64,000 bases of DNA from Thermoanaerobaculia bacterium (lineage in GTDB: Bacteria > Acidobacteriota > Thermoanaerobaculia > UBA5066 > Gp7-AA6). The stretch covers positions 654 to 64,653 of the forward strand of contig DATJZU010000144.1 of NCBI GenBank assembly GCA_035498835.1. The letters are read 5' to 3'. The notes beneath the pieces were generated by a model. It saw only the letters and a program-made list of their open reading frames with translations, was not told where the DNA came from and did no database searches. The position numbers and the translations under genes are program-made. Numbering within the stretch: position 1 is the stretch's first letter; each line of letters begins with the position of its first letter. This document shows, in pieces, positions 14,320 through 32,324 of the stretch.

Positions 14320-17274
14320 ATGCTCCGAAACAGTGGTGAGGAGTTGAGTCGCCGCGCCGGACTCCGCACGGCCCTCGGGATCGCGCTCGCGGCCGCATTG
14401 CTGTCCGTGCTGGTCTTCGTGACCGCGCGCAATGCGCGCGACCTGATCGAGGCCGGCCGGTGGGTGGAGCACGCGCGGAGCGTCCTCGACGACGTCGATG
14501 GGCTCGGCTCGGCTCTCGCGATGGCCGAGTCGAGCTCGCGCGGATACGCGCTCACCGGGCGAGCGGACCTCCTCGAACCGTTCGCCTCGAACGTCGGAGC
14601 GGCCGAGGGACACCTGCAGAGCCTCGAGAACCTGACGGCAGACAATCCCGACCAGCTGCGGCGCATCCGCGAGGTCGCCGCGCTGGCCAGCCAGAAGATC
14701 TCGGAAATGAAACGCGTCGTGGCGGAGCGGGACCGCGGCGGATTGGCGGCGGCCGCCGAGTCGGTCACGAGCGGCCCCGGGCTCGACGCCACGAACCGGA
14801 TCCGCCGGCTCAGCACAGACATCCGGGACGCCGAGAGCAAGCTCCTGAGCCGCCGGACCGGCACCTTCGAGCGGACGGCGCGCGCGACGCTCATCTCCCT
14901 CGCACTGGGAGCCGCGCTTCTCTTCTCCTTCCTCGCCCTCATCGGAGTGCTGCTGCGACTCGACCTGGCGCGGCGCGCCGAGGCCGAGCAGAAGCTCCGG
15001 CTCTCCGAGGAAGAGTTGCGCACGACGCTCCGGAGCATCGGCGACGGCGTCGTCGCGACCGACGACCGCGGATGCGTGACGCTCATGAATCCGCTCGCGG
15101 AGCGGCTGACGGGCTGGACGGAGACGGAGGCTCTGGGACGCGACGCCACGGAGATCTTTCACATCGTCAACGAGCGGACCCGGCAGCCCGTCGAGAGCCC
15201 GATCACGCGGGTCCTGCGCGAGGGCCTCGTCAGCGGACTCGCCAACCACACCGTGCTCATCGCGCGCGGCGGTGCCGAGGTCCCCATCGCCGACAGCGGC
15301 GCGCCGATCCGGGACGCGGCGGGGAGGCTCCGGGGAGCCGTCCTCGTTTTCCGGGACATCGGCGCGACGCGGCGTGCGGAGCTCCAGGCGAATCGCCTGG
15401 CGTCCATCGTCTCCTCGTCTGCGGACGCGATCGTCGGCGAGGCGCTCGACGGGACGATCACCGCCTGGAATGCAGCGGCCGAGCAGCTCTTCGGCTATTC
15501 GGCCTCGGAAGTGATGGGGCGGTCCGTCGCCCTCCTCGAGGCGCCGGGCTTCGAGGAAGCCACGGCCCAGCGCCTCGTCCGCGTACGCCGCGGGGAGCGC
15601 GTCCAACAGTACGACACGGTTCGGATGCATCGGGACGGCCGTCGCCTGGCGGTATCCGTCTCGATCTCCCCGATTTACGACGAGGCGGGCGAGGTCATCG
15701 GCGCGTCCAAGATCGTTCGGGACATCGCGGGGCGGAAGGACGCGGAGTCGGCGCTGCGCGCGAGCGAGGAACGCTTCCGGCTCCTCTCGGACTCCGTGTC
15801 TTCCCTCGTCTGGGTCTGCGACGAAAAGGGAATGGCAACGTATGTGAATCGACGGTGGCACGACTATTCGGGCCAGCTCAAGGACGACTGCCTCGAAGAG
15901 TTCTGGCAGAGAACCGTGCACCCCGATGACCTCCCGGCCTTCCTCGCGAAGTGGCAGGTCTCGGTGGCGACCGGGACGCCCTTCGAGGCCGAAGCGCGCT
16001 TTCGCCGACAGGACGGCTCCTATCGCTGGTTCGTGGCCCGTTCGGCGCGGATTCCGAGCCGCTCCGGCCCGATCTGGGTCGGCACCGCCGCGGACATCGA
16101 CGACCTCAAGAACACCGCCGAGGCGCTGCGGTCGGCCAAGGAGGCCGCGGAGGAGGCGGCGCACGCGAAGGACCGGTTCCTCGCGGTGCTTTCGCACGAG
16201 CTGCGGACCCCTCTGACGCCGGCGCTCGCGGTCTCGCAAGTCCTCGAGCGCCGCGGCGACCTGCCCGGCGACGTGAAAGATTCCGTGTCCCTCATTCGCC
16301 GCAACGTCGAGCTCGAGGTGCTGCTCGTGGACGACCTGCTCGATCTCACGAAGATCGCCCGCGGCATGGTCGAGCTGAAGCGCCAGACCGTGGACGTCCA
16401 TGAGCTCCTGCAGCAGGTCGTCGACATCTGCCGCAGCGACCTGAACGGACGGCGTCAGAACCTCGCGCTCGAGCTCGGCGCGGCGGAGCACCATGTCGAC
16501 GCCGATGCGGCGCGCCTTCAGCAAGTCTTCTGGAACCTGCTGAAGAACGCGATCAAGTTCACGCCCGTCGGAGGCTCGATCGCGGTCCGGTCGGAGACCG
16601 CCGAGCCCGGGCGGATGCGCATCGTCGTGACCGATTCGGGCATCGGCATTCCCGCGGGCATCCTCCCCCGGATCTTCGAGCCGTTCGAGCGCGGACCCAA
16701 GACCGTCAGCCCGCGCGCCTCCGGACTCGGGCTGGGCCTGTCGATCTCCCGAACGCTGGTCGAGCTTCATGGCGGAAGCATTCACGCCGACAGCGAAGGC
16801 GAGGGGCGGGGAGCCACCTTCACGGTGGAGCTGGCGTCGTTCGTCGAGAAGGGTGTCACCGTCAGCGCGAGACGTCAGGCCGCGCGTCGGGCGCGCAAGT
16901 TCTCGATCCTCCTCGTCGAGGACCATGCGGACACCGCCGGCGCCCTCGGCCAGCTCCTGCAGGAAGAAGGCCATCGCGTCACGGTGGCCGACTCGGTGGG
17001 CGCCGCCCTCGAGGCCTTTCGCGCGGTTCCGACGGACCTGCTCATCACGGACCTCGGACTGCCGGATGGCAGCGGTCACGACCTCCTTGCGCGGTTGCGC
17101 CAGATCCGCCCCGTCCAGGGAATCGTCCTCTCGGGGTACGGCATGGACGCGGACGTCGCCAAGAGCAAGGCCGCCGGGTTCGCCTTTCACCTGACGAAGC
17201 CCGTGCCCATCGGTCGACTTCTTCGGACTCTCGACGACCTCGGGTCGGAGGCCGAGGCCGAGGCGGCCGGCTGA
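14320..17274 (+). CDS. Hybrid sensor histidine kinase: CHASE3 periplasmic sensor, TM helix, 3 PAS domains, HisKA, HATPase_c and a C-terminal receiver domain
   Basis: 984 aa. It has a CHASE3-like N-terminus between two TM helices. PAS repeats follow (TLRSIGDGVVATDD..., IVSSSADAIVGEALDGTITAWNAAAEQLFGYS, LLSDSVSSLVWVCDEKG). The H-box is LAVLSHELRTPLTP. The N/G1/G2 boxes are present (NLLKNAIKFTP, DSGIGIP, GLGLGLSISR). The REC domain (ILLVEDH...DLGLPDGSG...HLTKP) is present. Confidence 0.85.
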   Translation: MLRNSGEELSRRAGLRTALGIALAAALLSVLVFVTARNARDLIEAGRWVEHARSVLDDVDGLGSALAMAESSSRGYALTGRADLLEPFASNVGAAEGHLQSLENLTADNPDQLRRIREVAALASQKISEMKRVVAERDRGGLAAAAESVTSGPGLDATNRIRRLSTDIRDAESKLLSRRTGTFERTARATLISLALGAALLFSFLALIGVLLRLDLARRAEAEQKLRLSEEELRTTLRSIGDGVVATDDRGCVTLMNPLAERLTGWTETEALGRDATEIFHIVNERTRQPVESPITRVLREGLVSGLANHTVLIARGGAEVPIADSGAPIRDAAGRLRGAVLVFRDIGATRRAELQANRLASIVSSSADAIVGEALDGTITAWNAAAEQLFGYSASEVMGRSVALLEAPGFEEATAQRLVRVRRGERVQQYDTVRMHRDGRRLAVSVSISPIYDEAGEVIGASKIVRDIAGRKDAESALRASEERFRLLSDSVSSLVWVCDEKGMATYVNRRWHDYSGQLKDDCLEEFWQRTVHPDDLPAFLAKWQVSVATGTPFEAEARFRRQDGSYRWFVARSARIPSRSGPIWVGTAADIDDLKNTAEALRSAKEAAEEAAHAKDRFLAVLSHELRTPLTPALAVSQVLERRGDLPGDVKDSVSLIRRNVELEVLLVDDLLDLTKIARGMVELKRQTVDVHELLQQVVDICRSDLNGRRQNLALELGAAEHHVDADAARLQQVFWNLLKNAIKFTPVGGSIAVRSETAEPGRMRIVVTDSGIGIPAGILPRIFEPFERGPKTVSPRASGLGLGLSISRTLVELHGGSIHADSEGEGRGATFTVELASFVEKGVTVSARRQAARRARKFSILLVEDHADTAGALGQLLQEEGHRVTVADSVGAALEAFRAVPTDLLITDLGLPDGSGHDLLARLRQIRPVQGIVLSGYGMDADVAKSKAAGFAFHLTKPVPIGRLLRTLDDLGSEAEAEAAG

Positions 17275-19147: not shown

Positions 19148-19165
19148 CCGTCGACGCCGAAATCG

Positions 19166-19351: not shown

Positions 19352-19513
19352 GAGTCCTCCTTCTATCGGGCGGGCGTCACGAGGCGCCGCCCCGCAGGGG
19401 ACATGCAGAACGCGTGCCCTCCGGAGAGGCGCGACGCCCGCGGCACGCAACTTGCTCCGACTGGTCCTTTTCCGGACGCACTGGCGCGCTCCGGGGTCGA
19501 AAGGAGTCTCCGC

Positions 19514-19810
19514 ATGAGAAAAGTCGTTGCGATCATGGCCATCGCGGTCGTCTGCCTCGCGGCCGTTGCCGTGGCGGCGCCCGAAACCCGGACGGTCGTC
19601 GGCACGATCACGCGAATCGACAATGCGTCAAAGTCGATGGTCGTGAAAGACGCCTCCGGGACCGAAACCACCATTTACTGGAACGACGGCTCGAAGGTGG
19701 ACGGGGGCGAGCTGCGGGAAGGGTCGACGGTCAAGGTCGAGACCAAGGATCAGGACGGGAAGTCCGTCGCGACCTCGATCCAGGTGCAGATGCCGAAGAA
19801 GCCGTACTGA
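19514..19810 (+). CDS. Secreted small beta-rich protein (CusF-like/OB-fold-like), paralogous to the repeats in 27452..28096
   Basis: 98 aa with signal peptide MRKVVAIMAIAVVCLAAVAVAAPE. Mature part TVVGTITRIDNASKSMVVKDASGTETTIYWNDGSKVDGGELREGSTVKVETKDQDGKSVATSIQV. SD GAAAGGAG. It is followed by a hairpin + T-tract at 19837..19868. Confidence 0.6.
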   Translation: MRKVVAIMAIAVVCLAAVAVAAPETRTVVGTITRIDNASKSMVVKDASGTETTIYWNDGSKVDGGELREGSTVKVETKDQDGKSVATSIQVQMPKKPY

Positions 19811-19820
19811 TTCATCCGCG

Positions 19821-21659: not shown

Positions 21660-23122
21660 GACGCGATCGCGGTCGGCAGGTAGTCCGCGACGCGCGGAAA
21701 CTCTGCGAGATCGCGCGAGATCGCGGCGCGAAGGAACGCGTCGAGCCAGTGGTAAATGTCTCGCTCGCGGATCGTGCGCCGCAGGCGGCTCATGCGCGCG
21801 CGCTGCTCCGCACGCGGCATGTCGAGCGCCCGGCGGAGCGCATCGGCCACGCCCTCGACGTCGTACGGATTGACGAGAAGCGCCGCGCGCTGCAGCTCCG
21901 CCGCCGCCCCGGCGAACTCGGACAGCACGAGCACGCCATCCTTCGAGACCCGTGTCGCGCAATACTCCTTCGCGACGAGATTCATTCCGTCCTTGAGCGG
22001 TGTCACGAGCGCGACATCGGCGGCGAGGTAATAGGCCGAAAGGCGCGGGCCCTCGAGCGGCCGGTGAAGATAGTGGACGGGCACCCATCCGGATCTCGTG
22101 AAGGTTCCGTTGATCTCGCCGACGAGCCGCTCGATCGCGGTGCGATGCTCGCGGTAGCCCCGAATCTCCTCGCGGCTCGGCACGGCGATCTGAACGAGCG
22201 TGACGTTGCCGCGCAGTTCGGGCGACGTCTCGAGAAGCCGGCGGAACGCCTCGAGCTTCTGCGCGATGCCCTTCGTATAGTCGAGCCGGTCGACGCCGAG
22301 CACGATGCGCCGGCCGGTCTCGTCGGCGCGCAGGCTCGCCGCCTTGGCGACGACCTCGGGCTGCCGCGCCCGGCGTTCGAGGGCGCGGGCGTCGATGGAG
22401 ATCGGGAAAGTCCCGACGCGCACATCGCGGTCTTCCCAACGGACGCTCATCACGGCGCCCTTCCCGGAGAAGCGGGCGCCGGGAAGGAGCAGTCGCACGC
22501 ACTGCAGGAAGTTCCGCCGGTCGCGGATCGTCTGGAAGCCGACGAGGTCGTAAGAGAGGAGCGACTGGAGGACCGGGAAGCGCCAGGGAAGCTTCAGGAA
22601 GACGTCGAGGGGCGGGAAGGGGATATGGAGGAAGAAAGCGATTCGCGAGGAGACGCCGAGCCGCCGCAGCTCCCCCGCCATCGCAAGGAGGTGATAGTCG
22701 TGGACCCAGAAAAAATCTCCGGGACGCGCGTCCTTCGCGGCCTCGGCCGCGAACCTCCGGTTGACGGCCTCGTAAGCGCGCCAGTACTCGGGATCGAAGC
22801 GGCACATCGAAAGCAGATCGTGGAAGAGCGGCCAGATCACCTCGTTCGAGAAGCCGTGGTAGAAGCGGTCGCGCTCACTGGCCGTCAACGGGACCGGTAC
22901 GAGCTCGTAGCCGAACCGCTCGCCGGAGGCTCGAAGCGCCGCGCGCGCGTCCGGCAGATCCTCCGCGACGGCGCCGCTCCAGCCGATCCAGCGCCCGCCC
23001 CGGCCCTCGAGGACCGGCCGGAGCGCCGTGACGAGACCTCCGCTGCCAGGCTCGACGCGCCACGCACCGTCTTCACGCGTGAGCGCGAAGGGCAGGCGGT
23101 TCGAAACCACCACGAGATTCAT
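21656..23122 (-). CDS. otsA: Alpha,alpha-trehalose-phosphate synthase (GT20)
   Basis: 488 aa [12 protein letters not shown]...GGLVTAL...WVHDYHL...[11 protein letters not shown]...LVNPYDVEG, full GT20 signature. Its start overlaps the otsB stop. Confidence 0.9.
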
Positions 23123-23994
23123 CGGCGATCCTTCCCGGACCGAGCCGGAGCCGCGGGCTCGGCGCGCAGCCACCGCAGGAGGAAATCCCGCAGCTCCTCG
23201 GGCGGCCGGAGCCACGCGGCGGCCGCGCTCTCCCGGCGCCGCGAACGCACGAGGACCGCGAGCCCGCGGCCGCGAAGCGCCGCGAAGGCGTCCTCGTCGG
23301 TCGCATCGTCGCCGAGGTAGGCGACGGCGGCCTCGCGTTTCTCTTCCTCGAGGATCGTCCGGACGACGCGGCCCTTGTTCGCATCCTCCGGCCGGAACTC
23401 GATTCCGCCGTCGAAGGGCCCGAGAACGAGGCCCGCGCGGCAGGCCGGCGCGCTCCAACGGGCGAGGACCGCTTCGCGCAGTCGCCGATAGCGCACCGGA
23501 TCCGGCCGCTCGTGCAGCGCAAAGCCGTAGGGCTTCCTCTCGAACAATCGCTCCGCGCCGCGCGCCGACGTCCAACGCGCAACGTCTTCGAGGAGCTCGG
23601 CGATCGCCCGCGACACCGGCGGGGCGTCGAGACGTCCCTCGGGTGTCATCCGCTCGAGGCCGTGCGAGCCCCAGAGCTCGGGGCGCGGGCGGAGCCAGCG
23701 CACGCGCTGACCGAGGTCGGACACCGCGCGCCCGCTCACGAGCACGAGGCGCGTCCGCCGCGCGGCGGCGATCTCGCTCAAGAGCTCGGCCACGCCGGCG
23801 TACGGCGCCGCGATGTCGCGCCCGCTCCGGAAGGGAGCGAGGGTCCCATCGTAGTCGGCGAGCAGCACGCGCGAAGGCGCGGCGGAAAACACGGCGAAGA
23901 ATCGATCGAATGCGTCCCCGCTCGCGGGATCGCTCGGGCGTCCCCGCACCGCGCCTTTCGGGCGACGGCGCCCGGTCGCCGGTCGGATCGTCAC
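23119..23994 (-). CDS. otsB: Trehalose-6-phosphate phosphatase (HAD family)
   Basis: HAD motif I LLADYDGTLAPF is present, as is motif III/IV (YLGDDATDEDAF). The start is uncertain: there is no in-frame ATG near the HAD core. GTG 23994 is chosen, and the 100-codon arginine-rich extension to 24285 is rejected. Confidence 0.75.
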   Translation of the reverse strand: MTIRPATGRRRPKGAVRGRPSDPASGDAFDRFFAVFSAAPSRVLLADYDGTLAPFRSGRDIAAPYAGVAELLSEIAAARRTRLVLVSGRAVSDLGQRVRWLRPRPELWGSHGLERMTPEGRLDAPPVSRAIAELLEDVARWTSARGAERLFERKPYGFALHERPDPVRYRRLREAVLARWSAPACRAGLVLGPFDGGIEFRPEDANKGRVVRTILEEEKREAAVAYLGDDATDEDAFAALRGRGLAVLVRSRRRESAAAAWLRPPEELRDFLLRWLRAEPAAPARSGKDRR

Positions 23995-24084
23995 TCGAAC
24001 CGAAACTGCAGAAAGCGTGCCGGCCGGCGCGGCGCTCCGCTCCTGGCAAGCGATTTGCTCCGGCCTCGGACGAGGAGGTGCGTC

Positions 24085-24189
24085 ATGGCCTGTCAGCACG
24101 AAGGATGCCGGTGCAACGAAGCGCGCGTCGAACGCGAGGGGCGGAAGTTCTGCAGCGAGACCTGCGCCGACCGCGCGCACGAGGGGTAG
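24085..24189 (+). CDS. Bacterial metallothionein (SmtA/BmtA-like), terminated by an in-frame TAG; the Cys-rich C-terminus continues to TGA 24234
   Basis: A perfect SD GAGGAGG lies 6 nt before the ATG. The product is MACQHEGCRCNEARVEREGRKFCSETCADRAHEG*. After the TAG the same frame reads SAPCPCGHPDCAAV*. The combined pattern C-x-C...KFCSETCA...GH...CPCGHPDC mirrors the SmtA zinc-finger-like fold. Confidence 0.5.
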   Translation: MACQHEGCRCNEARVEREGRKFCSETCADRAHEG

Positions 24190-24304
24190 AGCGCGCCGTG
24201 CCCGTGCGGCCACCCCGACTGCGCCGCCGTCTGAAATCTCCCGGATCCAGCAACCGCCGGGCGAAGGTCGCCCGTTCGGGAACAACCAACCACAGGAGGA
24301 AGAG

Positions 24305-24670
24305 ATGAAGTCCGTTTACGCCCAGCCGCACGTGCTCTCCGCTTCGACGCTCAAGGGAGACAAAGTGCGCAATTCCGCCGGCGACGACCTCGGCAACATC
24401 GAGGAATTCATGATCGATCTCGAGACGGGGCGGATCGCCTACGCGGTCCTTTCGTTCGGCGGATTCCTCGGGGTCGGCAACAAGCTGTTCGCCGTCCCCT
24501 GGCCGGCGATGGCGCTCGACACCGACAAGCACGAGTTCGTGCTCAATGTGGACAAGGCACTTCTGAAGAACGCGCCGGGATTCGACAAGGGTCACTGGCC
24601 GGACATGGCGGATCGGAGCTGGGGATCGCAGGTCTACAAGTACTACGGCATCGATCCCTACTGGCAGTAA
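24305..24670 (+). CDS. PRC-barrel domain protein
   Basis: 121 aa. SD AGGAGGAAG. The core LKGDKVRNSAGDDLGNIEEFMIDLETGRIAYAVLSFGGFLGVGNKLFAVPW is a canonical PRC-barrel. Confidence 0.8.
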   Translation: MKSVYAQPHVLSASTLKGDKVRNSAGDDLGNIEEFMIDLETGRIAYAVLSFGGFLGVGNKLFAVPWPAMALDTDKHEFVLNVDKALLKNAPGFDKGHWPDMADRSWGSQVYKYYGIDPYWQ

Positions 24671-24684
24671 GCGAAAGGATTTCC

Positions 24685-25575
24685 ATGGCCCGGAGGCGAG
24701 CGGCGGCGGCCAAACGAGTCGCGCACTCATCGCGCGCCGCCGCCCCGCCTCGGCCGGTTTGGACCGGCCAGATCTCTTTCGGCCTGGTCACGATCCCGAT
24801 CGCGCTCTCGAGCGCCGTCGAAGCGTCGGAGCGAATCTCCTTCCACCTGCTCCACCGCAAGGATCTCGCGCCCATCCACTACAAGAAGTTCTGCAGTCTC
24901 GAGGACGTCGAGGTGAGCAACGACGAGGTCGTCCGCGGCCGACGGAGCGGCAAGACGAAGTGGACGGTCGTCGAAAAGGAAGATCTCGAGAAGGCGGCGG
25001 AGGAAGCGTCGCCGGCCGACAGCCGGAACACCATCGAGGTGCTCGAGTTCGTTTCGCCGAGTACGATCGACTTTCTCTCGCTCGACGAGCCCTACTACGT
25101 CGTGCCCCGAAAGGGAGGCGAGAAGGCCTACGTTCTCCTCCGGCGCGCGCTCACCGAGCGAAGCCGGACGGGAATCGTGCGCGTCACGCTGCGCACCCGG
25201 CCGCACCTGGCGGCGCTGTCACCCCGGGGCGAGGCCTTGACGCTCGTCACGCTACGGCCCTTCGAGGAGATGCGCGACGCCTCGCGCTGGGGCCTGCCGC
25301 CGCCGTCCGCGCGTCCCGCCGAGGTCGCGCTCGCCGAGCAGCTCGTGGACCGGCTCTCGGGCGGAGGCTGGGACCCGGCGCGGCATCCCGACACCTATCG
25401 GCGCGCGCTCCAGAAGCTGCTCGCCTCGAAGAGCGCCCGGGGCGCGCGGGGCGCGGCCCCCGAACCCTCCGGCGAAAACGTGGTCGACCTGATGGAAGCC
25501 CTCCGGCGGAGCGTGGCCGGCCGCGTGGGGCGACGCCCTCGAAACGCCGCTCCGCGCAAGGCCAGCACCGCCTGA
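24685..25575 (+). CDS. ku: Ku protein (NHEJ DNA-end binding)
   Basis: VWTGQISFGLVTIPIALSSA... Ku core with a basic C-terminal tail. It lies 14 nt after the PRC-barrel gene. No ligD is present in the window. Confidence 0.85.
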   Translation: MARRRAAAAKRVAHSSRAAAPPRPVWTGQISFGLVTIPIALSSAVEASERISFHLLHRKDLAPIHYKKFCSLEDVEVSNDEVVRGRRSGKTKWTVVEKEDLEKAAEEASPADSRNTIEVLEFVSPSTIDFLSLDEPYYVVPRKGGEKAYVLLRRALTERSRTGIVRVTLRTRPHLAALSPRGEALTLVTLRPFEEMRDASRWGLPPPSARPAEVALAEQLVDRLSGGGWDPARHPDTYRRALQKLLASKSARGARGAAPEPSGENVVDLMEALRRSVAGRVGRRPRNAAPRKASTA

Positions 25576-25632
25576 GACGGCCGGGGCCGGCGAACGCCGG
25601 CCCCGCCCTCCATTCGAAGGACCGAATCTTCC

Positions 25633-25782
25633 CTACGCGACCGGCCTGCCCTGAATCAGCCGGATGAGCAGGATCACCACGGCGGCGACGAGCAGGATGT
25701 GGATGAAGCCGGACAGCGTGTAGCCGGACACGAGACCGAGCACCCAGAGGACGAGCAAAATCACGAAGATCGTCCAGAGCAT
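25633..25782 (-). CDS. lmo0937-family small membrane protein
   Basis: 49 aa MLWTIFVILLVLWVLGLVSGYTLSGFIHILLVAAVVILLIRLIQGRPVA. SD AAGGAAGGAG. This is the C-terminal part of a longer artefactual ORF. Confidence 0.55.
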   Translation of the reverse strand: MLWTIFVILLVLWVLGLVSGYTLSGFIHILLVAAVVILLIRLIQGRPVA

Positions 25783-25870
25783 TGATTCACTCCTTCCTTG
25801 CGCCCGGACCGTCGAAGACCGTCCGGCGCCATCGGAAGAGAGCGAAAAACGTGCCAGGGAAAGGAATGAG

Positions 25871-27124
25871 CTAGCGCCGCGCCTGCGGCTTGGACGGCTT
25901 CCGAACCGCCGGCGGCGCCTTCTTCGCGGCCTTCTTCGGCTCGCGTTCCGCGTCCGCGGCGCCGGGAAGCAGGCCGCGCACGACGTCCTCACGCACGGTG
26001 TCGCCCTCCGTCAGGATGTAGGCGCGATGCACCATGTTGCGAAGCTCGCGCACGTTGCCGGGCCAGTCGCGCGCCTGGAGCAGCTGGATCGCGGCCGGCT
26101 CGAAGTGCTTGACGCCGGACTTCTCCTGCTGGTCGATCTCGCGCAGGAAGTGCTCGGCCAGAATCGGGATGTCCTCGCGCCGCTCCTTGAGCGCCGGAAG
26201 CCGCAGGGGAAAGACATTGAGCCGATAGTAGAGGTCCTCGCGAAGCTTTCCTTCGCGCATCGCCACTTCCGGATCGCGATTCGTCGCCGAGAGGAGCCGC
26301 ACGTCCACGCGAATCTCCTGCGCGCCGCCGACGCGCCGCAGGCTCTTCTCCTCGAGGACGCGCAGCAGACGCACCTGCAGCTCCGCGCTCATCTCGGTGA
26401 TCTCGTCGAGGAAGAGCGTCCCTTCGTTGGCCTCTTCGAAATAGCCGACGCGCCGCTTGTCCGCGCCGGTGAAGGAGCCGCGCTCGTGCCCGAAGAGCTC
26501 GCTTTCGATGAGCGTCGGCGAAACCGCTCCGCAGTTGAACGCCACGAAGGGTTTCCCGGCCCGCCGCGAGAGCCGATGGATGGTTCGAGCGGCCACTTCC
26601 TTCCCGCTGCCGGACGCGCCCGAGATCAGGACGGGCGCGGCGGTGCGCGCGACCTTCCGAAGCGACTCGAAGACCGTCTGCATCGCTTCCGACCGCCCGA
26701 CCATTTCTCCCAGTCGGCCCGTTTCCTGGAGCTCCGTCCGCAGCTCGTCGAGCTCGAGCTCCAGCCGGCGCCGCTCGGCGACCCGCTGGTACACGGCCTC
26801 AAGCTGCGGGGGACGCAAGGGTTTCAGGAGATAGTCGGCCGCGCCGGCACGCAGCGCCTCGATCGCGTGATCGATGGCGCTCGATCCGGTGATCACGATC
26901 GCGTCCATGTCGGGCGCCGCCTGTCGCGCCTCGCGCAGGATCTCGAGACCGTCGCCGTCCGGCAGCGAGATGTCCACGATGAGGAGATGCGGCGCCGACT
27001 CCCGAAGCGCGTCGGACGCCTGGCGCGCCGTGCCGACGCCACGCGGCTCTCCGCCAAGATCCCGGATCGCCGTTTCGAGACTCTTGCGGAGGGACGCGTC
27101 GTCCTCGACGATCAGCGTTCTCAA
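25871..27124 (-). CDS. Sigma-54-dependent response regulator (REC + AAA+ sigma-54 activator) lacking a C-terminal HTH
   Basis: The REC domain is present (LIVEDDASL...DISLPDGDG...LLKP). Walker A GASGSGKE, the GAFTGA-variant GSFTGA and the Arg finger are present. The C-terminus ends in a Lys/Pro-rich tail with no Fis-type HTH. Preferred start is TTG 27124 (MRTLIVEDD), which overlaps the upstream ORF stop (TTGA). The alternative ATG at 27184 adds 20 arginine-rich residues. Confidence 0.8.
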   Translation of the reverse strand: MRTLIVEDDASLRKSLETAIRDLGGEPRGVGTARQASDALRESAPHLLIVDISLPDGDGLEILREARQAAPDMDAIVITGSSAIDHAIEALRAGAADYLLKPLRPPQLEAVYQRVAERRRLELELDELRTELQETGRLGEMVGRSEAMQTVFESLRKVARTAAPVLISGASGSGKEVAARTIHRLSRRAGKPFVAFNCGAVSPTLIESELFGHERGSFTGADKRRVGYFEEANEGTLFLDEITEMSAELQVRLLRVLEEKSLRRVGGAQEIRVDVRLLSATNRDPEVAMREGKLREDLYYRLNVFPLRLPALKERREDIPILAEHFLREIDQQEKSGVKHFEPAAIQLLQARDWPGNVRELRNMVHRAYILTEGDTVREDVVRGLLPGAADAEREPKKAAKKAPPAVRKPSKPQARR

Positions 27125-27351
27125 CGCGGCTCGTCCGGTCCGCCGAGAAGCTCCGAGCGCCCGCGCTCGAAGATCTCGAAACATCGCGCCAGTTCGCGCC
27201 GCGCCACGTCGAGCAGCGTGGACGGATCCTCGCCTTTCGCCGCCCGCCGGCTGGCCGTCTCGAGATTCAGCGCGACGGCCGAAAGCGGCGCCGAAACGTC
27301 ATGGAGGAAGCGGCGTAGCCTCGCGGGCTCGATGGAGTTCTCAAGTTGCAT
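27121..27351 (-). CDS. 76-aa ORF consisting only of a HisKA/DHp-like helix pair (H-box RRFLHDVSAPLSAV), coupled to the sigma-54 activator
   Basis: [65 protein letters not shown]... It has no ATP-binding domain and its stop overlaps the regulator start. Confidence 0.4.
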   Translation of the reverse strand: MQLENSIEPARLRRFLHDVSAPLSAVALNLETASRRAAKGEDPSTLLDVARRELARCFEIFERGRSELLGGPDEPR

Positions 27352-27376
27352 GGAATTCGATCCTATCTCGCCTCCG

Positions 27377-27417
27377 GGGCCCGTCCGGCGGCGGTAAAAA
27401 AAGGGCCCCGCCGGAAC
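27377..27417 (-). terminator. Rho-independent terminator of the tandem-repeat protein gene (GGCCCCGTTCCGGCGGGGCC + CTTTTTTTACC on minus strand)
   Basis: Hairpin plus T7 tract read from the reverse complement of about 27380..27415. Confidence 0.5.
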
Positions 27418-27451
27418 GGGGCCTTTCGTCTCGAAACGTTCGGATGAGCGA

Positions 27452-28096
27452 TCAGGCCTTCCCGCTGTACCGCGCGATCGCCGTGATGCTCTCGCCCGAC
27501 TCTCCCTTTCGCCGCGTGACCTTCACCCGCTCGCCGACCGCAATCGTTCCGGAGACCGCCGCGTTCTCGTCGAGATCGAAGCTGTAGTCCTTGTTGTTGG
27601 GACCCGTCACGACGATCTTCTTGCCGGCCTCGTATTTCTTGACCACGCCGACGACCGACTCGGTCTTGGACTTCGTGTCGGGCGCGTTCACGTGCTCGTT
27701 CTTCGTCGTGCTCTCAGTATGCGACTTGGGCATCGTGGCGGCCATCGTCGCGCTCCTGGAAGCCTCCGAGACGACCGACACGCGCTCGTGTCCGTCCGTG
27801 CCCTTCCAGTATTCGACCTTGGCCTGTTGCCCGACGACGACCGCGCCCTCGACGCGCGCGTTCTCGTCGAGGTCGAAGGAGTAGGTCTTGTCCTTCGGTC
27901 CGGCGATCTTGATCTTCTTGCCGGCCTCGTATTCCTTGACCGTGCCGACGACCGTCTCCATCTTCGCCTTGGTATCCGGGCCAGGCCCCGAGTGCTTCAC
28001 CGTGGTTTCCGTGGACGTCGTGGTTTGCGTCTCCTGGGCCGCGACGAAGCTCGCGGCGGCCAGAAGCCCCGCAGCCAGCAGAAACGTGCGTTTCAT
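27452..28096 (-). CDS. Secreted protein with two tandem ~80-aa CusF-like/OB-like repeats (paralog of 19514..19810)
   Basis: A strong SD AAGGAGAGAGAG precedes ATG 28096. Signal peptide MKRTFLLAAGLLAAASFVAA. Repeat 1 is VVGTVKEYEAGKKIKIAGPKDKTYSFDLDENARVEG. Repeat 2 is VVGVVKKYEAGKKIVVTGPNNKDYSFDLDENAAVSG. Confidence 0.6.
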   Translation of the reverse strand: MKRTFLLAAGLLAAASFVAAQETQTTTSTETTVKHSGPGPDTKAKMETVVGTVKEYEAGKKIKIAGPKDKTYSFDLDENARVEGAVVVGQQAKVEYWKGTDGHERVSVVSEASRSATMAATMPKSHTESTTKNEHVNAPDTKSKTESVVGVVKKYEAGKKIVVTGPNNKDYSFDLDENAAVSGTIAVGERVKVTRRKGESGESITAIARYSGKA

Positions 28097-28304
28097 CTCT
28101 CTCTCCTTTACGTAGGGCTTCTGCGCGAAGCCACGAGAGGTTCTTTCAAGAGTCGTGCCGACTCGAGACGTGAAATAAGCGCCGAGGGTCCACCGGGATT
28201 CCCGGACCGAGACGCCCCCGAGGCGCACGCTTTCGCGACGCCTCCGCGTTTCAGCCGAGCGCGGCGCACCGCGCGGCCCCCGCGCCGCGAATCCGTCGCG
28301 GCCA

Positions 28305-28562
28305 TCACGCGGAGTGCACGTTCCCCGCCCTCTCCGTCGGGGACGGGAACGAATGCACCTTGCCGCCTCGGGATAAGTCCCGATCGCCGGCGGGCTTCTG
28401 GCGCACGAGAAGCAGGCTCAACAGCAGCGTGGCGAAGACGAGCGCTATGTACACCACTCCCGAGACTCGGAAGAAAAGGGAGATTCCCAGAATGACGGCG
28501 ATGAGAAATGCGAGCGAAGAGTCCCGAAGGATCGTGGACGCCCGTCCGACCGAGGGCCTCAT
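28305..28562 (-). CDS. Small 2-TM membrane protein (hypothetical)
   Basis: 85 aa with two clear hydrophobic helices. Its ATG overlaps the stop of the upstream small ORF (ATGA). Confidence 0.35.
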   Translation of the reverse strand: MRPSVGRASTILRDSSLAFLIAVILGISLFFRVSGVVYIALVFATLLLSLLLVRQKPAGDRDLSRGGKVHSFPSPTERAGNVHSA

Positions 28563-28768
28563 CCTTCCTCCCGCAGTTGAACGCGCGTGTCGAGCTCGCG
28601 GTAGCCTGGCAGCCGGATCGGAACATTTCCTGTCGGAACGGGACGAGACGGCCGATCCGCGCCGCCGTCATCTTCGTCCGCCGGATTCGGGTCCTGGATC
28701 TCGTCCCCGCGGACGAGGGCTCCGATTTCGGGGCCGGAAGATCCATTGACGATCTCGGAGCGGTTCAT
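28559..28768 (-). CDS. Small acidic hypothetical protein
   Basis: 69 aa MNRSEIVNGSSGPEIGALVRGDEIQDPNPADEDDGGADRPSRPVPTGNVPIRLPGYRELDTRVQLREEG. A strong SD CAGGAGG lies 7 nt upstream. Confidence 0.35.
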   Translation of the reverse strand: MNRSEIVNGSSGPEIGALVRGDEIQDPNPADEDDGGADRPSRPVPTGNVPIRLPGYRELDTRVQLREEG

Positions 28769-29004
28769 GACGAACCTCCTGAAGAGCGACCGCTGTTCTT
28801 CATCGAGATTCCTCGGTGCACTCCTCATGCCAGCCCGTCGTCGGGACTTCGACGGCCGCGCCGCCATGCCCAGAACGAGAATGCGGATCGCAGTCCGCAC
28901 GAAAACGCCTCCCCGCGGCTGGCAGGGTCCTTGCTCCCCGGAGAGAATGATTGGTGTCCGGCCGCGAGTCCCGAGGGGGGCGTTAGCGGCCTCGTTTGCC
29001 CGGA

Positions 29005-30251: not shown

Positions 30252-32324
30252 ATGAAAGCCATGGACATTCCCGACCGAACCCCTCGAAATCTCGCGTCCG
30301 GAGCGGTTTGGGACCTGGTGCGCGGCGTCAGCCTTGCCGCCGCCTACCTGCTTCTTGCGCGGGCGGGGCTCGGATTTCACGCGGTCAGCCAGTTCGCGAC
30401 GCTCGTTTGGGCACCGAGCGGCATCGCCCTCGCGTCCATGCTCCTCTGGGGCTTCGGCATGTGGCCCGCCGTCGCGGTGGCGGCCTTCGCGGCGAATCTC
30501 TGGAACGGCGCTCCGGCCGCCGTGGCCCTCGCGATCGCCGCGGGAAACACGGGCGAGGCGGTCTTCGCGACCTGGGCGCTGCGGAAGATCCCGGGCTTCC
30601 GTGCCGAGCTCGACCGTCTGCCGGACGTCCTCGGACTCGCTCTCCTCGGAGGCGTCGCCGCGCCGACGATCAGCGCGACGGTGGGCGTCGTGAGCCTCGC
30701 CGCCGCCGGAATCGTCGGTCCGGCCACGATCGACCCGACGTGGCGCGCCTGGTGGCTGGGCGACGCGATCGCGATCCTCATCGTCACGCCCCTCCTTCTG
30801 ACGTGGCGTGCCCGGCCGCCGCGGGCCGGCCTCGCCGCGAGAATGGAGTTCGCGGCCCTCGTCGTCCTCCTGGCGCTGGCCGGCCTCCTGATCTTCGAGC
30901 TCCGGTTCCGCGCGACGACGATGGTGCTGACGCCGTTCCTGATCTGGGCGGCTCTCCGCTTCGAGGTGCGCGGCGCCGTGTGGGGGACGTTCCTCGCCGC
31001 GGCAATCGCCATCTGGGCCACCGCTCGCGGCCACGGCCCGTTCGCATCGGCCTCGGTCGAAGAGGGACTTCTTCATCTTCAGACATTCATGGGCCTGACG
31101 TCGGCGACCTTCCTCGTTCTCGGCGCGACGGCGTTGGAGCGCCGAAAAGCCGAGCAGGCTCTTCGCGCGGAAAAGGAACACGCCGAAGAAGCGAGCCACG
31201 CCAAGGACCGATTCCTCGCCACGCTCTCCCACGAGCTGCGGACGCCCCTCACCCCGGTGCTCGCCTACAGCTCGATGCTCGAGCAGGACGAGAGCCTGCC
31301 GCGCGGGGTTCGCGATCGTCTCGAGATCGTGAAACGCAACGCGCGGCTCGAGGCCCGACTCATCGACGACCTGCTCGATCTGACCCGCGTGTCGTCGGGG
31401 AAGCTCGTCATCCGTACGACGAGCGTCTCCGTCGCGAAAGCTCTCGATCACGCCGTGGAAGTCTGCCGGGACGAAGCCGCAACCGCCGGCGTCACCGTCG
31501 TTCGGGAGAACGCGCCGGAGACGGCCTTCGTCCGGGCCGACCCCGCGCGTCTGCGGCAGGTCTTCTGGAACATTCTCGAGAACGCGATCAAGTTCACGCC
31601 GCGCGGCGGCCGGGTCGTCGTCCACGACTCGCCGGCGCCGGGCGGCCGCGTGGCGGTCGAGATCTCGGACTCGGGCTGCGGAATCGAAGCATCCGAGGTC
31701 GCACGCATCTTCCGTCCCTTCGAACAGGCTTCCCACGGCAAAGGCGGCCTCGGTCTCGGGCTCGCCATCTCGCGGGCGCTCGTCGAGTCTCAGGGCGGAT
31801 CCCTGACTGCGGCGAGCCGGGGCCCCGGCGAGGGCGCGACCTTTCGAATCGAGCTTCCGGAGGGTTCGGCGTCCGACGCCGCCGCGCCACCTCCCGGTCC
31901 GCCGGGTACCGCCCCGGAGCCGCACGAGCGCCGGATCCTCCTTGTCGAGGACCACCCCGACTCGGCGCGCGCGGCGGCGGATCTCCTGCGGGAGCTCTCT
32001 TATCGCGTCGTCGTGGCGGCCAATGTCGCCGAGGCCCTCGAGGCGTCCGCTGTGGAGCCCTTCGATCTCGTGCTCTCGGACCTGGGCCTCCCGGACGGCA
32101 GCGGCCTCGATCTCATGCAGACGCTGCACCAGCGCCACGGGCTGCGCGGGATCGCGATCTCGGGATACGGCATGGAGGAGGATCGCCGGGCCTCCCAGGA
32201 GGCGGGCTTCGTGGACCACCTCGTCAAACCGATCTCCTTCGAGCGCCTCGCGGCCGCCCTCGAGCGCTTCTTCGCCGAGGAAGCGGCGCCGCAAGTCGAA
32301 GCGTCCGCGGCGCCGGCGTCCTAA
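30252..32324 (+). CDS. Hybrid sensor histidine kinase with N-terminal MASE1-type integral membrane sensor, HisKA, HATPase_c and receiver
   Basis: 690 aa. The N-terminal 300 aa form about 8 TM helices of MASE1 style. H-box LATLSHELRTPLTP. N/G boxes are present. The C-terminal REC domain shows ILLVEDHPDS...DLGLPDGSG...HLVKP. Confidence 0.85.
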   Translation: MKAMDIPDRTPRNLASGAVWDLVRGVSLAAAYLLLARAGLGFHAVSQFATLVWAPSGIALASMLLWGFGMWPAVAVAAFAANLWNGAPAAVALAIAAGNTGEAVFATWALRKIPGFRAELDRLPDVLGLALLGGVAAPTISATVGVVSLAAAGIVGPATIDPTWRAWWLGDAIAILIVTPLLLTWRARPPRAGLAARMEFAALVVLLALAGLLIFELRFRATTMVLTPFLIWAALRFEVRGAVWGTFLAAAIAIWATARGHGPFASASVEEGLLHLQTFMGLTSATFLVLGATALERRKAEQALRAEKEHAEEASHAKDRFLATLSHELRTPLTPVLAYSSMLEQDESLPRGVRDRLEIVKRNARLEARLIDDLLDLTRVSSGKLVIRTTSVSVAKALDHAVEVCRDEAATAGVTVVRENAPETAFVRADPARLRQVFWNILENAIKFTPRGGRVVVHDSPAPGGRVAVEISDSGCGIEASEVARIFRPFEQASHGKGGLGLGLAISRALVESQGGSLTAASRGPGEGATFRIELPEGSASDAAAPPPGPPGTAPEPHERRILLVEDHPDSARAAADLLRELSYRVVVAANVAEALEASAVEPFDLVLSDLGLPDGSGLDLMQTLHQRHGLRGIAISGYGMEEDRRASQEAGFVDHLVKPISFERLAAALERFFAEEAAPQVEASAAPAS

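What the first reader, a model, noticed from the sequence alone, without database searches (positions are those of the whole stretch)
25871..27351. DHp-only mini-ORF translationally coupled to a sigma-54 activator that lacks a DNA-binding domain
The 76-aa ORF carries a recognisable H-box (RRFLHDVSAPLSAV) and second DHp helix but no ATP-binding domain. Its TGA overlaps the TTG start of the regulator (MRTLIVEDD...). The regulator itself has REC + AAA+ with GSFTGA but ends without a Fis-type HTH, like FlgR/CtcC-type enhancer-independent activators. A free-standing DHp domain could act as a phosphatase or phosphotransfer partner, or be the remnant of a degraded kinase.
Basis: partly seen in the sequence, partly recalled or inferred. 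Interest (0 to 1): 0.55.

Follow-up and report, generated by a model that had tools for sequence, protein, structure and literature searches.

The report
Kinase stub paired with sigma-54 activator
A conserved 76-residue protein that keeps only the histidine-bearing helical hairpin of a small histidine kinase is co-translated with a sigma-54 activator lacking a DNA-binding domain; it is a selected, working gene rather than a dead fragment, and most likely passes phosphate to that activator.

Summary
On the minus strand, a 76-aa ORF (27121-27351) carries an H-box and ends in a TTGA overlap with a 417-aa REC + AAA+ sigma-54 activator (25871-27124). The activator has GSFTGA and no HTH, only a basic Pro/Lys/Arg tail.

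The mini-ORF is a real gene family, found in about 27 Thermoanaerobaculia species. H17 is invariant, close pairs give dN/dS of 0.1-0.2, and the 4-nt overlap is almost always kept.

About 20 sister species carry a collinear ~213-aa DHp+CA minimal kinase in the same slot. The regulator tree needs at least two changes of CA state (99.5% bootstrap). So the mini-ORF is a kinase that lost its catalytic domain and was then kept.

All 42 partner regulators keep the phospho-acceptor residues. A conserved sigma-54 promoter (TGGCACG-N4-TTCGC) follows the regulator's stop codon and drives an lmo0937/DUF5670 membrane protein. The locus lies in an island of back-to-back sigma-54 promoters for trehalose, Ku, PRC and BON genes.

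The best mechanism, inferred rather than shown, is a minimal Spo0B/ChpT-like histidine phosphotransfer or docking module. A phosphatase role is less likely here because the required Thr at H+4 is Ala. This is a new variant of a known kind.

The parts
27121..27351 (-). Mini-DHp gene, 76 aa. It forms a helical hairpin with the H-box LRRFLHDVSAPLS (His17) and has no CA/ATP-binding domain.
   Evidence: ORF and sequence. Sub-threshold HisKA hit. Hairpin model with pLDDT 88.7. 41 homologous clusters with invariant H17. dN/dS 0.1-0.33. Collinear DHp+CA relatives.
27121..27124 (-). TTGA overlap: the TGA stop of the mini-DHp overlaps the TTG start of the regulator, giving translational coupling.
   Evidence: Sequence. 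An NTGA 4-nt overlap is present in nearly all of 55 related loci, in both mini and long forms.
25871..27124 (-). Sigma-54 activator, 417 aa: REC (26792-27115), AAA+ sigma-54 interaction domain with GSFTGA (26204-26704), AAA lid (25973-26188). It has no DNA-binding domain.
   Evidence: Pfam and NCBIfam. E7, D8, D9, D51, T79, K101 and Walker A/B are conserved in 42 of 42 orthologues.
25874..25972 (-). C-terminal 33-residue basic, Pro/Ala/Lys/Arg-rich tail that takes the place of the usual Fis-type HTH.
   Evidence: No HTH model at E<=1. Every orthologue ends in a similar 25-45-aa low-complexity basic tail (...RKK, RKR or ARR).
25842..25856 (-). Sigma-54 -24/-12 promoter TGGCACGTTTTTCGC. It lies 15 nt after the regulator's stop codon and 60 nt before the next start codon.
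   Evidence: The same element is found upstream of DUF5670 in all 27 distinct loci that carry the gene, including L015 and the window, and is absent from the 16 listed long-form loci that lack DUF5670.
25633..25782 (-). Target gene: 49-aa lmo0937/DUF5670 family membrane protein.
   Evidence: Pfam DUF5670 E=5.3e-13. NCBIfam lmo0937_fam_TM E=1.3e-15. Conserved synteny.
27360..27365 (-). TAGGAT, a -10-like hexamer 8 nt upstream of the mini-ORF ATG. It suggests a leaderless or very short-leader mRNA. There is no SD at normal distance.
   Evidence: Sequence. TAGGAT lies 7-11 nt before an in-frame start codon in 9 of the 11 loci of the window's clade examined, window included. The promoter reading is inference only.
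27396..27423 (-). Intrinsic terminator of the upstream 214-aa gene. It shows that the mini-DHp starts its own transcription unit.
   Evidence: Terminator scan; sequence.
30252..32324 (+). MASE1-HisKA-HATPase_c-REC hybrid kinase with no HPt domain. It is a candidate phosphodonor.
   Evidence: Pfam. Present in the close relatives L011 and L016 but not in L064 within +/-10 kb.
14320..17274 (+). CHASE3-PAS-HisKA-HATPase_c-REC hybrid kinase with no HPt domain, at the other edge of the sigma-54 island. It is a candidate phosphodonor.
   Evidence: Pfam, ORF. A CHASE3-PAS hybrid kinase also abuts the cassette in L002-L004.

Best explanation
What it is (well supported). The 76-aa ORF is the DHp (dimerisation/histidine-phosphotransfer) hairpin of a small soluble DHp+CA histidine kinase whose ATP-binding CA domain was lost, apparently by internal deletion. 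The stub has since been kept as a functional gene. It is translationally coupled to its cognate REC-AAA+ sigma-54 activator.

How it most likely works (inferred).
1. Two hairpins form a four-helix bundle that still docks the regulator's receiver domain.
2. The bundle carries phosphate on His17. Because it cannot autophosphorylate, it takes the phosphoryl group from the receiver domain of a hybrid kinase, or in trans from another kinase's CA domain.
3. It hands the phosphate to Asp51 of the activator. This makes it a minimal Spo0B/ChpT-type phosphotransferase reduced to the DHp alone.
4. The phosphorylated activator has no DNA-binding domain. It acts without an enhancer, from solution or from non-specific DNA contacts of its basic tail.
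5. Its targets would be the sigma-54 promoter right after its own gene (lmo0937/DUF5670) and probably the other sigma-54 promoters of the surrounding trehalose/Ku/PRC/BON stress island.
For: Real, selected gene:
- 41 small-protein clusters.
- 44 species-level loci, all Acidobacteriota/Thermoanaerobaculia.
- H17 invariant, plus 19 other invariant columns.
- dN/dS of 0.10-0.19 for the closest pairs, with a median of 0.33 against 0.245 for the regulator.

Derived from a kinase:
- A ~213-aa DHp+CA protein sits in the same slot with the same 4-nt overlap in about 20 species.
- Its profile matches solved kinases: ThkA 3a0r at E=2.6e-13, also FixL, ZraS and DivL. It matches Pfam HATPase_c in 22 of 24 members and HisKA in 23 of 24.
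- The long family has at least 320 clusters.

CA is dispensable: on the regulator tree the split {long + mini group B} | {window clade + L015} has 99.5% bootstrap support. The split that would allow a single loss has 0%.

Phospho-chemistry is retained:
- All 42 regulators keep E7, D8, D9, D51, T79 and K101.
- The mini proteins keep His and the H+1 acidic residue.
- DHp helix 1 and REC helix 1 are equally conserved in mini and long systems.

Against a phosphatase role here: H+4 is Ala in 9 of 10 species of the window's clade. Thr/Asn at that site is required for HisKA phosphatase activity but not kinase activity (PMC3510030).

Relay context:
- Two HPt-less hybrid kinases flank the island in the window.
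- In the long-form loci, and in at least six of the sixteen mini group B loci (partly in five more), two hybrid kinases (GAF-HK-REC-REC and REC-HK-REC) sit divergently next to the DHp gene.
- A distant 71-aa relative is coupled to a REC-PilZ protein and surrounded by single-domain REC genes.

Output:
- The sigma-54 promoter is conserved upstream of DUF5670 in all 27 distinct loci that carry the gene.
- 13 of the window's 25 sigma-54-like sites fall within 11 kb around the locus.
- 14 of 16 sites are intergenic in a diverged relative.
Against: - No phosphotransfer was measured, and dimerisation was not modelled because no multimer prediction was available.
- The HisKA hit of the mini-ORF itself is below Pfam's threshold.
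- Foldseek and a PDB sequence profile of the mini form found nothing specific. A helical hairpin is a generic fold.
- In the window's own clade no hybrid kinase is consistently adjacent. L064 has none within +/-10 kb, so the phosphodonor is unknown.
- I could not check whether these genomes also encode ordinary HPt proteins.
- Mini group B keeps Thr at H+4 in 16 of 16 species, so a phosphatase role is not excluded for the family.
- A few distant small relatives lack the His (P0054, P0055, P0065, P0072). Two of these (P0065, P0072) were checked and are not next to a regulator.
Confidence: 0.5

Rival explanations
1. Dedicated phosphatase or 'reset' factor. The DHp-only dimer docks the phosphorylated activator and catalyses its dephosphorylation. 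Phosphorylation itself would come from another kinase or from acetyl phosphate.
For: - HisKA-type DHp domains carry the phosphatase determinant, and the phosphatase idea has been raised for 'HisKA, no HATPase' proteins (PMC5847659).
- From my own knowledge, isolated EnvZ domain A dephosphorylates OmpR-P in vitro.
- Mini group B keeps H-D-x-x-T in 15 of 16 species.
- Translational coupling gives a fixed stoichiometry with the regulator.
Against: - In the window's clade the Thr/Asn needed for phosphatase activity (PMC3510030) is Ala in 9 of 10 species.
- The phospho-accepting His, which is not required for HisKA phosphatase activity, is still invariant.
Confidence: 0.2
2. Non-catalytic partner. 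The hairpin binds the receiver domain, or heterodimerises with the DHp of another kinase. It would act as an anti-activator, a scaffold or a connector, with no phosphate on His17.
For: - The docking surfaces (DHp helix 1 and REC helix 1) are conserved.
- Some distant small relatives have lost the His.
- CA was lost without loss of the gene.
Against: - His17 and the adjacent acidic residue are invariant or nearly so across about 27 species. A pure binding protein would not need them.
- The two His-less relatives whose context was checked (P0065, P0072) are not next to a regulator.
Confidence: 0.15
3. Split kinase. The mini-DHp is still the phosphorylation substrate of a CA domain encoded elsewhere, either a free-standing CA protein or a paralogous kinase forming a heterodimer. 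The pair would then work as an ordinary kinase in two pieces.
For: - From my own knowledge, separate EnvZ domains A and B reconstitute kinase activity in vitro.
- The H+1 acidic residue needed for autophosphorylation (PMC3510030) is kept.
- One MAG carries both a mini locus and a divergent long locus: L019 and L015, both from assembly DATBIJ.
Against: - No CA-only gene lies in the conserved neighbourhood.
- The other 43 species show only one form with the search used.
Confidence: 0.1
4. Decaying pseudogene remnant, or an untranslated chance ORF left after deletion of the kinase's catalytic domain.
For: - Collinear full DHp+CA genes exist in relatives.
- The mini-ORF has no Shine-Dalgarno at the usual distance.
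Against: - The frame is intact in about 27 species, with identity down to 47%.
- dN/dS is 0.1-0.33.
- There are 20 invariant residues.
- The 4-nt overlap is kept.
- A conserved TAGGAT at a fixed distance suggests a leaderless mRNA.
- The CA-less state is found in two separate lineages.
Confidence: 0.03

Closest known systems
Spo0B (Bacillus sporulation phosphorelay) and ChpT (Caulobacter CckA-ChpT-CtrA relay) histidine phosphotransferases
   Same: Both are descendants of kinase DHp domains that carry a His on a helical hairpin or four-helix bundle. They cannot autophosphorylate and shuttle phosphate between receiver domains (ChpT is described in PMC9981736).
   Different: Spo0B and ChpT keep a degenerate CA-like C-terminal domain, which in ChpT also touches the receiver. 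Here that domain is absent altogether and the protein is 70-85 aa. The partner is a sigma-54 activator. No sequence or fold match to either was obtained. Function here is inferred, not shown.
'HisKA, no HATPase' proteins in genome censuses (P2CS 'phosphotransfer proteins'; archaeal non-enzymatic HK-like proteins)
   Same: Both have a HisKA-like domain with a conserved His and no ATPase domain. Their function is untested, and the proposals are phosphotransfer or phosphatase (PMC2716373; PMC5847659).
   Different: The catalogued archaeal cases have N-terminal PAS/GAF sensor domains. This one is the bare hairpin. It is bacterial, overlaps its regulator gene by 4 nt, and its DHp+CA ancestor is still present in sister species.
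Isolated EnvZ domain A (laboratory DHp fragment)
   Same: It is a DHp fragment of about 67 residues that dimerises, accepts phosphate in trans, transfers it to the regulator and has phosphatase activity in vitro. This comes from my own knowledge and was not checked in the library.
   Different: That is an engineered fragment. The protein here is a naturally evolved, conserved gene.
FlgS/FlgR (Helicobacter, Campylobacter) and CtcB/CtcC (Chlamydia): sigma-54 activators without a DNA-binding domain
   Same: They share the REC + AAA+ architecture with no DNA-binding domain (group 5 in PMC7175178). NCBIfam aligns FlgR over residues 1-379.
   Different: FlgR and CtcC are paired with complete kinases. 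Here the partner has no CA domain. The activator here ends in a conserved basic low-complexity tail, and its gene is followed directly by a sigma-54 promoter. Scores are far below the FlgR equivalog cut-off (303 vs 750 bits), so it is not an FlgR orthologue.
Minimal soluble DHp+CA kinases of Thermoanaerobaculia (long form; nearest solved structure Thermotoga ThkA, 3a0r)
   Same: The DHp is homologous, with the same H-box core PLSAV.L.LE.A.RR. The gene occupies the same slot, has the same 4-nt overlap and partners the same regulator family.
   Different: The long form has a ~130-aa HATPase_c domain and Thr at H+4. In most species it has no DUF5670 gene or sigma-54 promoter downstream.

Membership tests
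HisKA-type DHp domain (Pfam PF00512) | Match to the HisKA profile at or above the gathering score | tested here: not met
   The mini-ORF scores 17.3 bits against a 26.9-bit cut-off, E=0.0049. 37 of 42 members give sub-threshold hits, best E=6e-4.
HisKA-type DHp domain (Pfam PF00512) | Homology to bona fide DHp domains of kinases | tested here: met
   The profile of the mini family retrieves 205-238-aa DHp+CA proteins. These align through the whole hairpin. They hit HisKA in 23 of 24 members and HATPase_c in 22 of 24, and match solved kinases at E down to 2.6e-13.
HisKA-type DHp domain (Pfam PF00512) | Two-helix hairpin with a conserved phospho-acceptor His followed by an acidic residue on helix 1 | tested here: met
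   AlphaFold2 gives H9-38 and H44-69 at pLDDT 88.7. H17 is invariant, and D/E at H+1 is found in 26 of 27 species.
HisKA-type DHp domain (Pfam PF00512) | Homodimeric four-helix bundle | not testable with these tools
   Only single-chain prediction was available.
Histidine kinase (functional enzyme) | HATPase_c (CA) domain with N, G1, F and G2 boxes | tested here: not met
   The ORF stops 7 residues after helix 2, inside the regulator's start codon, so there is no room for CA. No HATPase_c hit.
Spo0B/ChpT-type histidine phosphotransferase | DHp-derived His carrier that lacks autokinase activity | tested here: met
   The His hairpin is present and CA is absent.
Spo0B/ChpT-type histidine phosphotransferase | Degenerate CA-like C-terminal domain | tested here: not met
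   There is no C-terminal domain at all.
Spo0B/ChpT-type histidine phosphotransferase | Receives phosphate from one receiver domain and passes it to another | not testable with these tools
   Context only. HPt-less hybrid kinases lie nearby, and single-domain REC genes surround a distant relative.
HPt domain (Pfam PF01627) | Match to the Hpt profile (monomeric four-helix bundle) | tested here: not met
   No Hpt hit at E<=1.
Sigma-54 activators without a DNA-binding domain (FlgR/CtcC group) | REC domain with an intact phospho-acceptor pocket | tested here: met
   Response_reg E=2.6e-22. E7, D8, D9, D51, T79 and K101 are conserved in 42 of 42.
Sigma-54 activators without a DNA-binding domain (FlgR/CtcC group) | AAA+ sigma-54 interaction domain with a GAFTGA-type loop | tested here: met
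   Sigma54_activat E=1.8e-69. GSFTGA is found in 39 of 42 and GAFTGA in 3 of 42.
Sigma-54 activators without a DNA-binding domain (FlgR/CtcC group) | No C-terminal HTH | tested here: met
   No HTH_8 at E<=1. A 33-aa Pro/Lys/Arg tail takes its place in all orthologues.
Sigma-54 activators without a DNA-binding domain (FlgR/CtcC group) | Enhancer-independent activation | not testable with these tools
   One indirect hint: back-to-back sigma-54 promoters only 9-21 bp apart leave no intergenic room for an upstream site.
FlgR orthologue (NCBIfam NF049963) | Score at or above the curated cut-off | tested here: not met
   303.6 bits against a cut-off of 750.
Pseudogene | Relaxed selection or a disrupted frame | tested here: not met
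   Frames are intact and dN/dS is 0.10-0.33.

The most novel reading that the evidence does not exclude
A naturally evolved, bare DHp hairpin of 70-85 aa is a new minimal class of histidine phosphotransferase. It would have arisen at least twice by deletion of the catalytic domain from a small kinase. It would link HPt-less hybrid kinases to an enhancer-independent sigma-54 activator that switches on a desiccation/osmotic-stress island built from back-to-back sigma-54 promoters in Thermoanaerobaculia.
Probability: 0.4. Interest if true: 0.7.

Novelty: new variant of a known kind. Interest (0 to 1): 0.58.

Why it matters
Two-component signalling theory treats the DHp as the part of a kinase that holds specificity, phosphotransfer and phosphatase activity. 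Laboratory fragments show that it can work alone. Here nature appears to have made that experiment at least twice and kept the result. The ancestral DHp+CA form is still present in sister species, which offers a clean comparative system for asking what a kinase can do without its ATPase domain.

The finding also gives a concrete candidate for the missing phosphotransfer step of HPt-less hybrid kinases in Acidobacteriota. It adds a free-living soil lineage to the short list of sigma-54 activators that lack a DNA-binding domain, otherwise known from Helicobacter, Campylobacter and Chlamydia. In this lineage the activator is tied to a recognisable regulon that includes trehalose synthesis, Ku, PRC, a BON/OsmY-like protein and small membrane proteins.

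Tried and rejected
- **Structure search of the mini-DHp model against the PDB.** Only generic helical hairpins came back (E>1), so it was uninformative.
- **PDB sequence search with the mini-family profile.** Nothing significant. Only the long-form profile (A4) linked the family to solved kinases.
- **Is the long-form CA domain dead, as in ChpT?** I considered this because its G1 box reads E-N-P-G instead of D-x-G-x-G. I rejected it as evidence because the best solved match, the ThkA kinase, also has N at that position (W-N-S-G).
- **Thr-to-Ala at H+4 as a family-wide signature of the CA-less form.** Rejected. It holds only for the window's clade (9 of 10). Mini group B keeps Thr.
- **His-less distant hits (P0065, P0072) as evidence that the His is dispensable.** They are not next to any regulator, so they say little about this system.
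- **Hybrid-kinase adjacency as a universal feature.** It holds for the long-form loci and for many of the mini group B loci. It does not hold for the window's clade.
- **Whole-window count of sigma-54-like sites.** The count is not above chance (14 vs 9.9; 25 vs 19.7). Only the clustering, the intergenic placement and the conservation are meaningful.
- **Rfam.** No hit anywhere in the window.
- **Related-locus search with the broad alignment A3.** It failed because no conserved stretch was available, so A1 was used instead.
- **Literature.** No paper in the library mentions DUF5670.
Full report
**1. Observation**

Everything in the finding lies on the minus strand. The 76-aa ORF is 27121-27351 (MQLENSIEPARLRRFLHDVSAPLSAVALNLETASRR...), and it is the longest possible reading of that frame. 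It ends ...CCG CGT TGA. The TTG of TTGA opens the regulator ORF (MRTLIVEDD..., 25871-27124, 417 aa).

Pfam finds three domains in the regulator:
- Response_reg at residues 4-111
- Sigma54_activat at 141-307 (E=1.8e-69)
- AAA_lid_14 at 313-384

No HTH_8 or any other DNA-binding model appears even at E<=1. The last 33 residues are Pro/Ala/Lys/Arg-rich (...EPKKAAKKAPPAVRKPSKPQARR). NCBIfam aligns NtrC, AtoC, ZraR and FlgR only up to about residue 380-395, and always below the equivalog cut-offs.

The mini-ORF gives a sub-threshold HisKA hit (E=0.0049, 17.3 vs 26.9 bits).

**2. The mini-ORF is a conserved gene**

- A word-seeded search found 41 clusters of 76-107-aa proteins at 53-95% identity, none longer. 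In their alignment H17 and 19 other columns are invariant.
- An exhaustive profile search of 1.8 billion representatives found only 51 relatives, mostly 56-136 aa.
- In GTDB species representatives there are 44 loci, all MAGs of Acidobacteriota/Thermoanaerobaculia.
- AlphaFold2 with the family alignment gives a confident two-helix hairpin (H9-38, H44-69, pLDDT 88.7).
- 37 of 42 members give the same sub-threshold HisKA hit, and 22 also hit HisKA_3.
- Pairwise Nei-Gojobori dN/dS is 0.10-0.19 for the closest pairs (dS 0.2-0.25). The median over 291 pairs is 0.33, against 0.245 for the regulator next door.

This is purifying selection on a protein, not a decaying fragment.

**3. The conserved cassette**

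In every locus of the window's clade the order is:
- mini-DHp
- a 4-nt NTGA overlap
- a REC-AAA+ activator of 402-446 aa
- a 70-150-nt spacer
- a 49-aa DUF5670/lmo0937 membrane protein

This holds even where the flanks differ. All activators end in a 25-45-aa basic low-complexity tail and none has an HTH. All 42 distinct activators keep E7, D8, D9, D51, T79, K101 and the Walker A and B motifs. The loop reads GSFTGA in 39 and GAFTGA in 3. The regulator is therefore still built to be phosphorylated.

**4. Relatives with a full kinase in the same slot**

The profile search also returned 205-238-aa proteins with the same hairpin followed by about 130 residues carrying N, F and G2 boxes. In about 20 of the 44 species the gene in this slot is this ~213-aa DHp+CA form. 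It has the same 4-nt overlap with an orthologous activator.

Evidence that the long form is a kinase:
- Its profile hits solved histidine kinases: ThkA 3a0r at E=2.6e-13, also FixL chimeras, ZraS and DivL.
- It hits Pfam HATPase_c in 22 of 24 members and HisKA in 23 of 24.
- The long family is large, with at least 320 clusters, usually annotated as histidine kinase.

Its G1 box has Asn instead of Asp, but so does ThkA. I therefore do not treat the CA as dead.

Apart from one MAG, each species shows one form only. The exception is assembly DATBIJ, which has L019 (mini) and L015 (a divergent long form).

The mini-ORF is by descent a kinase that lost its CA domain.

**5. Not a pseudogene, and probably not a single accident**

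A neighbour-joining tree of the activators separates four groups:
- the window's clade (mini + DUF5670)
- L015 (long + DUF5670)
- a long clade without DUF5670
- a second mini clade, group B (mini + DUF5670)

The split {long + group B} | {window clade + L015} has 99.5% bootstrap support. The split {all mini} | {all long}, which a single loss would need, has 0%. Whatever the root, CA presence changed at least twice.

Synteny agrees. At least six of the sixteen group B loci (and five more in part), nearly all long-form loci, and (for the GAF kinase only) L015 share upstream hybrid kinases; the two-kinase pair is GAF-HisKA-HATPase-REC-REC and REC-HisKA-HATPase-REC. The window's clade does not share them.

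The stop points also differ between the two mini clades (...LLKP* versus ...LLGGPDEPR*). The caveats are that this is NJ on one protein with no outgroup.

**6. Output side**

A sigma-54 -24/-12 element, TGGCACG-N4-TTCGC (GG-N10-GC spacing), lies 4-150 nt after the activator's stop and about 60 nt before the DUF5670 start. It is present in every one of the 27 distinct loci that have DUF5670, L015 and the window included. It is absent from the 16 listed long-form loci that lack DUF5670. In the window it is at 25842-25856.

More sigma-54-type sites cluster around the locus:
- 13 of the window's 25 sites fall between 17.6 and 28.9 kb, where about 3.5 would be expected.
- Most lie 50-60 nt upstream of start codons.
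- The downstream genes are otsB-otsA-GH15, a Cys-rich mini-ORF followed by PRC and Ku, a BON/OsmY-like gene, a PF04120 gene and several small ORFs.
- Four pairs are back-to-back, with only 9-21 bp between the two -24 elements.
- The same sites and pairs recur in loci whose mini-DHp is only 65-88% identical. In L064, 14 of 16 sites are intergenic.

An activator with no DNA-binding domain sits inside an island of sigma-54 promoters that leave no intergenic room for enhancers. That is a coherent picture, but regulation of these promoters by this activator is inferred, not shown.

**7. Mechanism**

Shown:
- The DHp hairpin with His is conserved.
- CA is absent.
- The regulator's phospho-pocket is conserved.
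- DHp helix 1 (PLSAV.L.LE.A.RR) and REC helix 1 (DD..TRKGLE..I.DLGG) are equally conserved in mini and long systems.

Inferred: the stub still docks the receiver and still uses His17.

Because it cannot autophosphorylate, the phosphate must come from elsewhere. Candidates in the window are two hybrid kinases that have a C-terminal REC and no HPt domain:
- MASE1-type, 30252-32324
- CHASE3-PAS-type, 14320-17274

Together they flank the island. A distant 71-aa relative (P0085) overlaps a REC-PilZ(weak) gene by 4 nt and is surrounded by a PAS kinase and three further REC genes. That is a relay-like cluster.

The phosphatase alternative is weakened in this clade. H+4 is Ala in 9 of 10 species, but Thr in all 16 group B and all 20 long forms. 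Thr/Asn there is required for HisKA phosphatase activity, while the H+1 acidic residue, retained here, is required for kinase chemistry (PMC3510030).

Against the relay model, no hybrid kinase is consistently adjacent in the window's clade, and I could not survey whole genomes for HPt proteins.

My probabilities:
- relay or phosphotransfer: about 0.5
- phosphatase: 0.2
- non-catalytic binding partner: 0.15
- split kinase: 0.1
- pseudogene: 0.03

**8. Comparison with what is known**

- It works most like Spo0B and ChpT, which are DHp-derived phosphotransferases (PMC9981736). It fails the membership feature of a retained CA-like domain and shows no detectable similarity to either.
- As an architecture it belongs to the 'HisKA, no HATPase' class that censuses have listed without experiments (PMC2716373; PMC5847659, which proposes the same two functions).
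- The activator belongs architecturally to the FlgR/CtcC group of bEBPs without a DNA-binding domain (PMC7175178). It is not an orthologue of FlgR (303 vs 750 bits).

**9. Verdict**

The finding is real and correctly described.

It is a new variant of a known kind: a bare, conserved DHp stub whose DHp+CA ancestor survives in sister species, coupled to an enhancer-less sigma-54 activator in a stress island. Interest is moderate to good (0.58). The biology is testable and the comparative system is unusually clean, but the mechanism is unproven and the general architecture has been catalogued before.

Noticed in passing
window 17600-28840 (sites at 17607-, 17631+, 17930-, 17960+, 18466+, 19405-, 19441+, 24008-, 24044+, 25842-, 28818-, 28920+): An island of sigma-54-type -24/-12 promoters. 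Most lie 50-60 nt upstream of start codons of otsB-otsA-GH15, a Cys-rich 34-aa ORF followed by PRC and Ku, a BON/OsmY-like gene, a PF04120 gene, DUF5670 and several 60-100-aa ORFs. Four pairs are back-to-back with only 9-21 bp between the -24 elements. The sites and pairs are conserved in diverged relatives (L001, L005, L020, L021, L026, L064).
   Followed up: partly
window 17631-17714 (+): Candidate sigma-54-dependent small RNA of about 58 nt. A promoter-like site TGGCAACCGAATTGC is followed 37 nt later by the strongest intrinsic terminator of the region (17682-17706 plus a T-run). The fold has z=-4.5. It is conserved in L021 and L011, with compensatory changes in the terminator stem and an invariant UUCUUUCCA(C)CCC stretch that looks anti-Shine-Dalgarno-like. 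There is no ORF and no Rfam match.
   Followed up: partly
window 27360-27365 (-): A TAGGAT hexamer lies exactly 8 nt upstream of the mini-ORF ATG, and 7-11 nt upstream of an in-frame start in 9 of the 11 loci of the clade examined. This suggests a leaderless or near-leaderless mRNA and would explain the missing ribosome-binding site.
   Followed up: partly
window 25874-25972 (-): The activator's HTH is replaced in every orthologue by a 25-45-aa basic Pro/Ala/Lys/Arg tail ending in RKK, RKR or ARR. It resembles histone-H1-like tails and could give non-specific DNA affinity.
   Followed up: no
L060 2154-3494 (assembly GCA_036559405.1) and L061: A distant 71-aa mini-DHp (FLHDISSPLT) in a lower-GC organism overlaps a REC-PilZ(weak) gene by 4 nt. 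A single-domain REC follows it, a divergent PAS kinase precedes it, and another REC lies nearby. DHp-only proteins coupled to receivers therefore also occur outside the sigma-54 context.
   Followed up: partly
L023-L057 long-form loci, about 20-5000 (-): Two hybrid kinases (GAF-HisKA-HATPase-REC-REC of about 950 aa, and REC-HisKA-HATPase-REC of about 670 aa) are divergently transcribed right next to the DHp(+CA) gene. This holds in nearly all long-form loci and in at least six of the sixteen loci of the second mini clade (partly in five more), pointing to a conserved multi-kinase cluster.
   Followed up: partly
long-form CA domain, e.g. L023 4989-5627: The G1 box reads E-N-P/R/A-G instead of D-x-G-x-G in all long forms. 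The same Asn occurs in Thermotoga ThkA (3a0r), their best solved match. ATP binding is therefore uncertain but not excluded.
   Followed up: no
P0054, P0055, P0056, P0065, P0066, P0072, P0077, P0082: Distant small relatives have Arg, Lys, Ser or Glu in place of the phospho-acceptor His. Two that were checked (P0065, P0072) are not next to a response regulator and follow a conserved 158-aa protein of unknown function.
   Followed up: partly
window 27452-28096 (-): A 214-aa protein with a signal peptide and two internal repeats (...VGTVKEYEAGKKIKIAGPKDKTYSFDLDENA...) has no Pfam or NCBIfam match. It sits immediately upstream of the mini-DHp, ahead of a terminator, in the clade members whose upstream gene could be read (L001, L005, L008, L011, L064), but not in L002.
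   Followed up: no
window 24085-24189 (+): A 34-aa Cys-rich ORF (MACQHEGCRCNEARVEREGRKFCSETCADRAHEG) lies directly downstream of a conserved sigma-54 site and ahead of PRC and Ku. It may be a small metal-binding protein.
   Followed up: no
window 13584-13598 (+): A perfect sigma-54 consensus, TGGCACTCGAGTTGC, lies about 720 nt upstream of the CHASE3-PAS hybrid kinase gene. Its target is not identified.
   Followed up: no
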